In this document: piece after piece, positions 12,476 through 13,105 of the stretch
Layout of the letters: each line of letters opens with the position of its first letter
How positions within the stretch are numbered: the stretch's first letter is position 1
From: Escherichia coli
GTDB lineage: Bacteria > Pseudomonadota > Gammaproteobacteria > Enterobacterales > Enterobacteriaceae
Strand: one strand, 5' to 3'
DNA: 64,000 bases
Assembly (NCBI RefSeq): GCF_030013595.1
Contig: NZ_CP122768.1
Notes under the pieces: model-generated
Seen by the model: only the letters and a program-made list of their open reading frames with translations
The model's database searches: none
Told to the model about the DNA's origin: nothing
Made by a program: the position numbers and the translations under genes

Positions 12476-12510
12476 AGTTTAGTTAAGTTCTTTAGTATGT
12501 GCATTTACGA

Positions 12511-12783
12511 CTAATGAAAAAAACGCGTATGCCTTTGCCAGACAAGCGTTATAGCTATCGCGGCAAGTATCCCAAAGAAGCCGATAAAATAGTAATAGAG
12601 TGTTAATGCACCTGTAAAAGCGCAACGAACCGGACTCCACAACTCTTCGCTATGGCATTTTCCTGCCAGTTCAAGGAGCTTATTTCGTCCATGCGAGATA
12701 ATGCCTGACCATAACACAATCATTAAGCAACTTATTACCCAAACGGGTCGTTCACTCATTAATGCGGCATCCATGATGATCAC
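12511..12783 (-). CDS. small hydrophobic ORF, possible remnant of ybhM
   Basis: 90 aa ORF in the ybhN-ybhL gap where K-12 has ybhM; the gap looks too short for an intact ybhM. Confidence 0.25.
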   Translation of the reverse strand: MIIMDAALMSERPVWVISCLMIVLWSGIISHGRNKLLELAGKCHSEELWSPVRCAFTGALTLYYYFIGFFGILAAIAITLVWQRHTRFFH

Positions 12784-13105
12784 CAGGGCCAGCTCTGCTG
12801 GTTGCCACCATACCCAAAGCGGTAATGAGCCATATACCGTTTAATATCCTGGCCTCGTGCTGAAAATCTAATTTATTGCTGTTTTGCGAGTATGATTCCA
12901 TTCTTTTAGTTGTCCTTAGAAAAAATATTAATATTCACCATCAATAAATTTAAAACCACGCATACAAAATACTTTTGTATTTATGGATACGGAAAACACT
13001 TCCACTCGGCCATAAGGCGTATTTTATACCTGGTACTTGTTAAGTGTCGTTTTTAGTAAGAAAAAAATCCCGACACATGGCCGGGATATTGATGGTGAAA
13101 AAGAA

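What the first reader, a model, noticed from the sequence alone, without database searches (positions are those of the whole stretch)
12476..13105. ybhN-ybhL interval looks too short for an intact ybhM
K-12 has ybhM between ybhL and ybhN. Here the gap is ~630 bp with only a 90-aa hydrophobic ORF and an AT-rich stretch, suggesting a deletion or frameshift remnant of this Bax-inhibitor paralogue. My memory of ybhM length is not certain.
Basis: inference. Interest (0 to 1): 0.2.

Follow-up and report, generated by a model that had tools for sequence, protein, structure and literature searches.

The report
Decayed ybhM gene remnant
The short gap between ybhN and ybhL holds a dead copy of the membrane-protein gene ybhM, which has lost 324 bases and gained a one-base frameshift; this is ordinary gene decay that public annotation already flags.

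Summary
The window is E. coli clsB-ybhN-[gap]-ybhL-moaEDCB, and the ybhN-ybhL gap is 630 bp, against 953 bp in a K-12-type genome that carries a 714-bp (237-aa) ybhM.

Alignment shows two lesions in the window's ybhM.
- A 324-bp in-frame deletion removes codons 35-142. It lies between imperfect direct repeats GCAGGRYTGGCC.
- One extra base at window 12799, next to the deletion junction, shifts the frame.

The deletion is a common allele. Its junction occurs in about 576 of 5426 complete E. coli genomes, where it encodes an intact 129-aa ORF. The extra base is found in only two genomes, both from UK pig faeces. They are 100% identical to the window over 20 kb, and NCBI's PGAP annotation marks the gene there as a frameshifted pseudogene.

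The AT-rich stretch is the normal ybhL terminator plus the published, H-NS-associated ybhM promoter. Both are intact in the window.

Verdict: a real, ordinary pseudogene of a dispensable and divergent Bax-inhibitor-1 paralogue. Interest is low.

The parts
11519..12475 (+). ybhN (318 aa), left boundary of the interval; intact
   Evidence: ORF. Annotated ybhN at the matching position in L001-L004.
12476..12510 (.). 35-bp spacer between the convergent stop codons of ybhN and ybhM
   Evidence: The spacer is the same length in the K-12-type locus L002 (ybhN ends at 1676, ybhM ends at 1712).
12511..12901 (-). ybhM pseudogene, 391 bp. It equals the 714-bp gene minus 324 bp plus 1 bp.
   Evidence: Alignment to intact and deleted alleles and difference list. 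An identical sequence in strain HCP5S3_I2 is annotated by PGAP as 'Bax inhibitor 1 family protein, frameshifted', pseudogene.
12752..12901 (-). 49-aa ORF from the true ybhM start. It has 33 native residues, then 16 out-of-frame residues, then a stop.
   Evidence: No Pfam match. No 19-residue hydrophobic segment above threshold.
12799..12799 (-). Extra A on the coding strand (T on the + strand). It is a +1 frameshift after codon 34, immediately 5' of the deletion junction repeat.
   Evidence: Single-base gap against all deletion alleles. The exact 51-mer occurs in only 2 of 5426 genomes.
12787..12792 (-). Crossover interval of the 324-bp deletion, within CTGGCC of the junction copy of the direct repeat GCAGGRYTGGCC
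   Evidence: Comparison of hypothetical junctions built from five intact alleles with four deletion alleles. The best crossover lies at gene nt 109-114.
12511..12783 (-). It is the C-terminal part of YbhM in the original frame, and no Shine-Dalgarno-like sequence is visible upstream.
   Evidence: Pfam Bax1-I positions 146-206 of 207, 26.7 bits, below the 34.1 cut-off. The upstream sequence was read. The exact product is absent from the 15-billion-protein collection.
13021..13050 (-). ybhM sigma-70 promoter: ACGACA at 13050-13045, a 16-nt spacer, TATAAA at 13028-13023. An alternative -10 hexamer, TAAAAT, lies at 13026-13021.
   Evidence: The published K-12 constitutive promoter in the ybhL-ybhM spacer, ACGACA-16-TATAAA, is listed with H-NS (PMC3946193). 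The same hexamers were read in the window and found by the scan.
13057..13087 (-). ybhL intrinsic terminator: an 8-bp stem (5 G-C pairs) followed by a T-run
   Evidence: ATCCCGGCCATGTGTCGGGAT followed by TTTTTTCTTA. It starts 18 nt after the ybhL stop codon.
13106..13810 (-). ybhL (234 aa), right boundary of the interval; an intact Bax-inhibitor-1 (BI-1) family gene
   Evidence: Pfam Bax1-I 212 bits, positions 1-207 of 207. Matches B. subtilis YetJ structures. Annotated as ybhL.

Best explanation
The interval holds a non-functional remnant of ybhM, a divergent paralogue of the neighbouring Bax-inhibitor-1 (BI-1) family gene ybhL. Two events made it. First, a 324-bp in-frame deletion between two imperfect direct repeats (GCAGGRYTGGCC, 324 bp apart) removed codons 35-142. 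The most likely mechanism is replication slippage or short-homology recombination. The deletion fused the first half of transmembrane helix 1 to the second half of helix 5 and left a 129-aa ORF. This short allele is common in E. coli. Second, in the window's lineage one A was inserted right at the junction. It shifts the frame after codon 34, so translation from the native start ends after 49 residues. The C-terminal 90 codons are left as an ORF with no visible ribosome-binding site. The upstream AT-rich DNA is the ordinary ybhL terminator and ybhM promoter. The remnant may therefore still be transcribed, but it cannot make a BI-1-type protein. The two lesions, their population frequencies and the pseudogene annotation are shown. 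The slippage mechanism, the helix fusion and the absence of translation of the 90-aa ORF are inferred.
For: Synteny is clsB-ybhN-X-ybhL-moaE, as in annotated genomes. The alignment shows the 324-bp gap and the extra A. Intact YbhM matches Pfam Bax1-I at positions 3-205 of 207 (75.1 bits). The 129-aa allele matches only positions 127-205 (30.4 bits) and the 90-aa ORF only 146-206 (26.7 bits), both below the 34.1 cut-off. Intact YbhM also aligns with YbhL over its whole length, so the long form is ancestral. Direct repeats lie at both breakpoints and the crossover maps to gene nt 109-114. The junction is present in 575 and 576 of 5426 genomes in two independent junction queries. There it is annotated as a 390-bp intact CDS, and four exact 129-aa variants are each seen on roughly 850 to over 1000 contigs. 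The exact +A junction occurs in only 2 genomes. They are 100% identical to the window over 20 kb, are identical over 12476-12930, and are annotated 'frameshifted'. The promoter and terminator were identified.
Against: No expression data exist for this strain, so the statement that nothing functional is made is an inference. The extra A could in principle be a shared base-calling error. However, it is not in a homopolymer, and it appears in two further assemblies that differ from the window by an IS2 insertion. Among deletion alleles pN/pS is below 1 (0.06-0.38). The 129-aa form may therefore have had some function before the frameshift, in which case the deletion step alone was not simple decay.
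Confidence: 0.93

Rival explanations
1. The extra A at 12799 is a sequencing or assembly error, and the strain really carries the common in-frame 129-aa short ybhM allele.
For: Without the A, the window's sequence is identical at the protein level to the 129-aa allele of strain 1190. Only 2 of 5426 genomes share the A, and both come from one UK pig-faeces study.
Against: The A is not in a homopolymer run (CAACC-A-GCAG). It is present in two other assemblies that differ structurally from the window by an IS2 insertion, so it has been seen in at least three assemblies.
Confidence: 0.04
2. ybhM is intact and uses an alternative start or frame.
For: None found.
Against: The longest minus-strand ORFs in the interval are 90, 53 and 49 aa. 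The alignment shows 108 codons missing and a frameshift. The Pfam match covers only profile positions 146-206.
Confidence: 0.005
3. The remnant still yields a functional small membrane protein: the 90-aa C-terminal fragment (predicted helices 6-7) made by internal initiation at GTG 12783 or ATG 12774.
For: The ORF is open and hydrophobic, with 2-3 hydrophobic segments. The upstream promoter is intact.
Against: No Shine-Dalgarno-like motif is visible upstream of either start (sequence read). The start lies 32 nt inside the upstream 49-aa ORF. The exact 90-aa and 87-aa products are absent from a collection of 15 billion predicted proteins. PGAP treats the locus as a pseudogene.
Confidence: 0.03

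Closest known systems
E. coli K-12-type ybhM (237 aa, WP_000446911.1; locus L002)
   Same: It has the same position between ybhL and ybhN, and the same start codon, stop codon, promoter hexamers and 35-bp spacer to ybhN. The retained 390 bp are about 93-95% identical.
   Different: The window lacks codons 35-142 (324 bp) and has a +1 A at 12799, so no full-length BI-1 domain can be made.
129-aa short ybhM allele (e.g. WP_000446922.1 of strain 1190, WP_000446924.1, WP_000446942.1, WP_001586827.1)
   Same: It carries the same 324-bp deletion at the same junction. The window's sequence translates to exactly the strain 1190 protein once the extra A is removed.
   Different: Those alleles keep an open 129-aa frame and are annotated as proteins. 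The window's frame is broken.
Pseudogene ACR3H5_RS17495 of E. coli HCP5S3_I2 (NZ_CM149870.1)
   Same: The sequence is identical over window 12476-12930, including the extra A. PGAP annotates it 'Bax inhibitor 1 family protein, frameshifted'.
   Different: That strain and LCP30S3_I5 also carry an IS2 with a 5-bp CCTGG duplication. It sits inside the ybhM promoter spacer, at the position of window 13030-13034. The window has no IS2.
YbhL / B. subtilis YetJ (BI-1 / TMBIM family, PDB 4PGR)
   Same: Intact YbhM has the same Pfam domain (Bax1-I) and a similar length. It aligns over its whole length with YbhL at 27% identity.
   Different: YbhL keeps both aspartates that align with YetJ Asp171 and Asp195 (their role is described in PMC8589314). 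At those positions YbhM has G and Y (SHGRNK and LYYYF). Even intact YbhM therefore lacks the family's di-aspartyl pH sensor.

Membership tests
BI-1 / YccA family (Pfam PF01027 Bax1-I) | Whole-protein score above the Pfam gathering cut-off (34.1 bits), with the match spanning the domain | tested here: not met
   The window's 90-aa ORF scores 26.7 bits over profile positions 146-206 and the 49-aa ORF has no hit. For comparison, the 129-aa allele scores 30.4 bits and intact K-12-type YbhM scores 75.1 bits over positions 3-205 of 207.
BI-1 / YccA family (Pfam PF01027 Bax1-I) | Seven transmembrane helices | tested here: not met
   A Kyte-Doolittle scan finds no segment in the 49-aa product and 2-3 in the 90-aa ORF. 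The deletion removes residues 35-142, which run from the second half of helix 1 to the first half of helix 5. This is a crude hydropathy scan, not a topology predictor.
BI-1 / YccA family (Pfam PF01027 Bax1-I) | Di-aspartyl pair in helices 6 and 7 (YetJ Asp171 and Asp195) | tested here: not met
   YbhL keeps both aspartates (YDTQ and LYLDF). YbhM, whether intact or remnant, has G and Y at the aligned positions. The role of these residues is described in PMC8589314.
ybhM orthologue (by position and descent) | Located between ybhL and ybhN on the ybhL strand, with nucleotide homology to ybhM over all retained sequence | tested here: met
Pseudogene (disrupted remnant of a known gene) | Reading frame interrupted relative to intact homologues, and a substantial part of the domain lost | tested here: met
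   A 324-bp deletion plus a +1 frameshift. PGAP marks the identical sequence as 'frameshifted'.
Pseudogene (disrupted remnant of a known gene) | No functional product made | not testable with these tools
   Needs transcript, ribosome-profiling or proteomic data from this strain.

The most novel reading that the evidence does not exclude
The 129-aa in-frame short allele may not be a decay intermediate. It could be a selectively maintained three-helix mini-protein, made of a hybrid of helices 1 and 5 plus helices 6-7, with the native topology preserved because four helix-equivalents were removed. It is carried by about 10% of E. coli, and it may have arisen more than once at the 12-bp repeat hotspot. 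On this reading the window's lineage has only recently lost it through the frameshift.
Probability: 0.12. Interest if true: 0.25.

Novelty: already known. Interest (0 to 1): 0.06.

Why it matters
It matters little. It is a correct annotation point: ybhM in this strain should be called a pseudogene, and the 90-aa ORF should not be called a gene. It adds one more example that ybhM is dispensable and inactivated repeatedly in E. coli, by deletion, frameshift, and IS1, IS2, IS5 and IS200 insertions. This fits an H-NS-associated, AT-rich, fast-diverging paralogue that lacks the family's di-aspartyl sensor. The one mildly interesting by-product is the common 129-aa in-frame allele. Its retained reading frame and pN/pS below 1 could be tested for residual function.

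Tried and rejected
1. I first counted deletion carriers as genomes with no megablast hit to the K-12 324-bp segment (1270 of 5426). I rejected this count. ST131 has an intact 714-bp ybhM whose segment is only 91.4% identical to K-12, with a longest exact word of 25 nt, below megablast's 28. Junction-spanning blastn queries give 575-576 instead.
2. The roughly 1000 records with about 50% coverage looked like large insertions. They are most likely intact alleles whose two alignment pieces overlap in the query, across the junction repeat, and so were not joined. I did not pursue this.
3. An exact-protein look-up found nothing for the 49-aa product or for the 90-aa and 87-aa products.
4. An Rfam scan of 12300-13300 at E<=1 found nothing. 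NCBIfam has no model that matches YbhM.
I did the repeat analysis by script instead.
6. I considered programmed frameshifting at the +A site and rejected it, because CAACCAGCAG is not a slippery sequence; I ran no formal test.
7. A literature search for ybhM returned no functional study. It gave only a promoter catalogue entry and an IS5 insertion report.

Full report
**Observation.** The window around the finding reads clsB (10278-11519, +), ybhN (11519-12475, +), a gap, ybhL (13106-13810, -), then moaE, moaD, moaC and moaB on the minus strand. The gap 12476-13105 is exactly 630 bp. A 49-aa minus-strand ORF at 12752..12901 overlaps it in another frame. GC falls to 0.31-0.37 over 12800-13100, against 0.48-0.60 in the flanking genes.

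**Comparison with intact loci.** A megablast of window 12300-13300 against 5426 complete E. coli genomes matched 5424 of them. Most span about 1324 bp in two pieces and carry an annotated ybhM. A minority span 1000 bp in one piece. In a K-12-type genome (L002) the interval between ybhN and ybhL is 953 bp, with a 714-bp, 237-aa ybhM on the ybhL strand. That genome's deleted segment is 100% identical to K-12 derivatives.

**The two lesions.** Multiple alignment and a base-by-base difference list show two lesions.
- A clean 324-bp gap corresponds to codons 35-142 of ybhM. It is shared with strains such as 1190 and AF206, where the remaining 390 bp are annotated as an intact 129-aa CDS.
- One additional A on the coding strand at window 12799 lies immediately 5' of the junction. 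It is absent from all the deletion alleles I fetched.

In translation, the extra A ends the native frame after 33 correct and 16 wrong residues. It strands the C-terminal 90 codons.

**Which form is ancestral.** Intact YbhM matches Pfam Bax1-I over positions 3-205 of 207 (75.1 bits). It also aligns with the neighbouring paralogue YbhL over its whole length. The 129-aa allele covers only profile positions 127-205 (30.4 bits) and the 90-aa ORF only 146-206 (26.7 bits). Both are below the 34.1-bit cut-off. The long form is therefore ancestral and the short forms are derived.

**Mechanism of the deletion.**
- In five intact alleles the two breakpoints carry an imperfect direct repeat, GCAGGRYTGGCC, 324 bp apart. 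In strain MS 21-1 the run of matches across the two breakpoints is longest, broken by a single mismatch.
- Hypothetical junctions fit the observed deletion alleles best with a crossover at gene nt 109-114, which is window 12787-12792.
- This pattern is typical of short-homology deletion by slippage or illegitimate recombination. That mechanism is an inference.
- At the protein level the repeat encodes (A/T)GLA at the start of helix 1 and in helix 5, so the deletion produces ...LVATAGLALVII....
- A simple hydropathy scan suggests that a hybrid helix plus helices 6-7 remain. The helix assignment is approximate.

**Population frequency.** Two junction-spanning blastn queries were designed so that half-matches would fall below the E-value limit. 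In the second query some half-matches still passed, so carriers were counted as matches covering at least 80% of the query. The queries found the junction in 575 and 576 of 5426 genomes, or about 10.6%. An earlier estimate of 1270 genomes, from the absence of the K-12 segment, was an artefact. The intact ST131 allele is only 91.4% identical in that segment, and its longest exact word is 25 nt, so megablast misses it. In a collection of about 15 billion proteins the 129-aa form is a 452-member cluster. Each of four exact variants is seen on roughly 850 to over 1000 contigs, under names such as 'hypothetical protein' and 'FtsH-binding integral membrane protein'.

**Age and selection of the short allele.**
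- Deletion alleles differ from one another at synonymous sites as much as they differ from intact alleles (pS 0.07-0.14).
- Their pN/pS is 0.06-0.38.
- The short allele is therefore old, recurrent, or reshuffled by recombination. These data cannot separate the three.
- The low pN/pS may simply be inherited from intact ancestors through recombination.

**The frameshift.** The exact 51-mer containing the extra A occurs in only two genomes, HCP5S3_I2 and LCP30S3_I5, both from UK pig faeces. These are the only genomes at least 99% identical to window 5000-25000, and they match it at 100.0%. Over 12476-12930 HCP5S3_I2 is identical to the window. PGAP annotates the locus there as 'Bax inhibitor 1 family protein', pseudogene, 'frameshifted'. 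The A is not in a homopolymer, and it occurs in assemblies that differ structurally from the window. A sequencing error is therefore unlikely (about 4%).

**The rest of the interval (minus strand, 5' to 3').**
- 18 nt after the ybhL stop there is an 8-bp G+C-rich hairpin with a T-run (13087-13057), which looks like an intrinsic terminator.
- Next comes ACGACA (13050-13045), 16 nt, then TATAAA (13028-13023). This is exactly the constitutive sigma-70 promoter reported for the K-12 ybhL-ybhM spacer, and it is listed with H-NS (PMC3946193; also found).
- An AT-rich leader runs from there to the ATG at 12901.
- A 35-bp spacer separates the ybhM stop from the convergent ybhN stop, as in K-12.
- No Rfam family matches the interval.

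The AT-rich stretch is thus ordinary control DNA, not debris from the deletion.

**What was lost.** YbhM has no functional literature in the searched library. It is a divergent BI-1/TMBIM-family paralogue. YbhL retains the two aspartates that align with B. subtilis YetJ Asp171 and Asp195. These form the di-aspartyl pH sensor described as conserved in TMBIM proteins (PMC8589314). YbhM has Gly and Tyr at the aligned positions. Other strains inactivate the gene in other ways.
- IS5 disrupts ybhM in RR1/HB101 (PMC5379014).
- IS1 and IS200 elements are annotated within the matched ybhN-ybhL stretch in other isolates.
- IS2 sits in the promoter spacer of the window's closest relatives.

Low GC, the H-NS association, 7% nucleotide divergence between K-12 and ST131 and these repeated lesions all point to a weakly constrained, dispensable gene.

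**Verdict.** The interval holds a ybhM pseudogene made by a common 324-bp in-frame deletion plus a lineage-specific +1 frameshift. It is ordinary gene decay, and public annotation of a near-identical strain already flags it. The only reading with any novelty is that the widespread 129-aa in-frame allele is itself a maintained mini-protein. I give that about 12% probability, and in this window that allele is broken anyway.

Noticed in passing
L004:2785-4120 (NZ_CM149870.1); the insertion point corresponds to window 13030-13034: The two closest relatives of the window (HCP5S3_I2, LCP30S3_I5) carry an IS2 of 1331 bp plus a 5-bp CCTGG target duplication. It sits exactly in the 16-nt spacer between the -35 and -10 hexamers of the ybhM promoter. 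The window lacks it.
   Followed up: partly
window 13814-13815: A TT dinucleotide lies 4-5 nt upstream of the ybhL ATG, between the AGGAGA Shine-Dalgarno sequence and the start codon. All three comparison genomes (strain 1190, AF206, K-12-type) have GA here. This is a lineage-specific change in the ybhL translation-initiation region.
   Followed up: no
window about 27000-62000: A lambdoid prophage lies next to bioA (24172-25572). It includes a tape measure protein (40001-42562), a large terminase subunit (50465-52390) and a central tail fibre J-like protein (34121-37600), all with very strong PHROG matches. Its position suggests the lambda attachment site.
   Followed up: partly
L010 (NZ_CP030331.1, strain AR_452) 412-1724: This intact ybhM allele has a different N-terminus (MNSRSANNITNDFQ...). 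The ybhL-ybhM spacer is only 69 bp instead of about 205 bp, and the YbhL protein is a different accession. This suggests a recombinant or replaced segment at the ybhL-ybhM boundary in some strains.
   Followed up: no
ybhM across E. coli (L002 vs L012): ybhM is unusually divergent for a chromosomal gene at a fixed position. K-12 and ST131 are 92.9% identical over the gene and 91.4% in the central 324 bp, enough to make megablast miss the gene in about 690 genomes.
   Followed up: yes
other genomes, rows H3, H20, H33; PMC5379014: Other strains carry independent IS elements at this locus. IS200C (PEC1013) and IS1B (FMU073332, MSB1_1D) are annotated within the matched ybhN-ybhL stretch; their exact positions were not checked. 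IS5 is inserted in the N-terminal part of ybhM in RR1/HB101.
   Followed up: no
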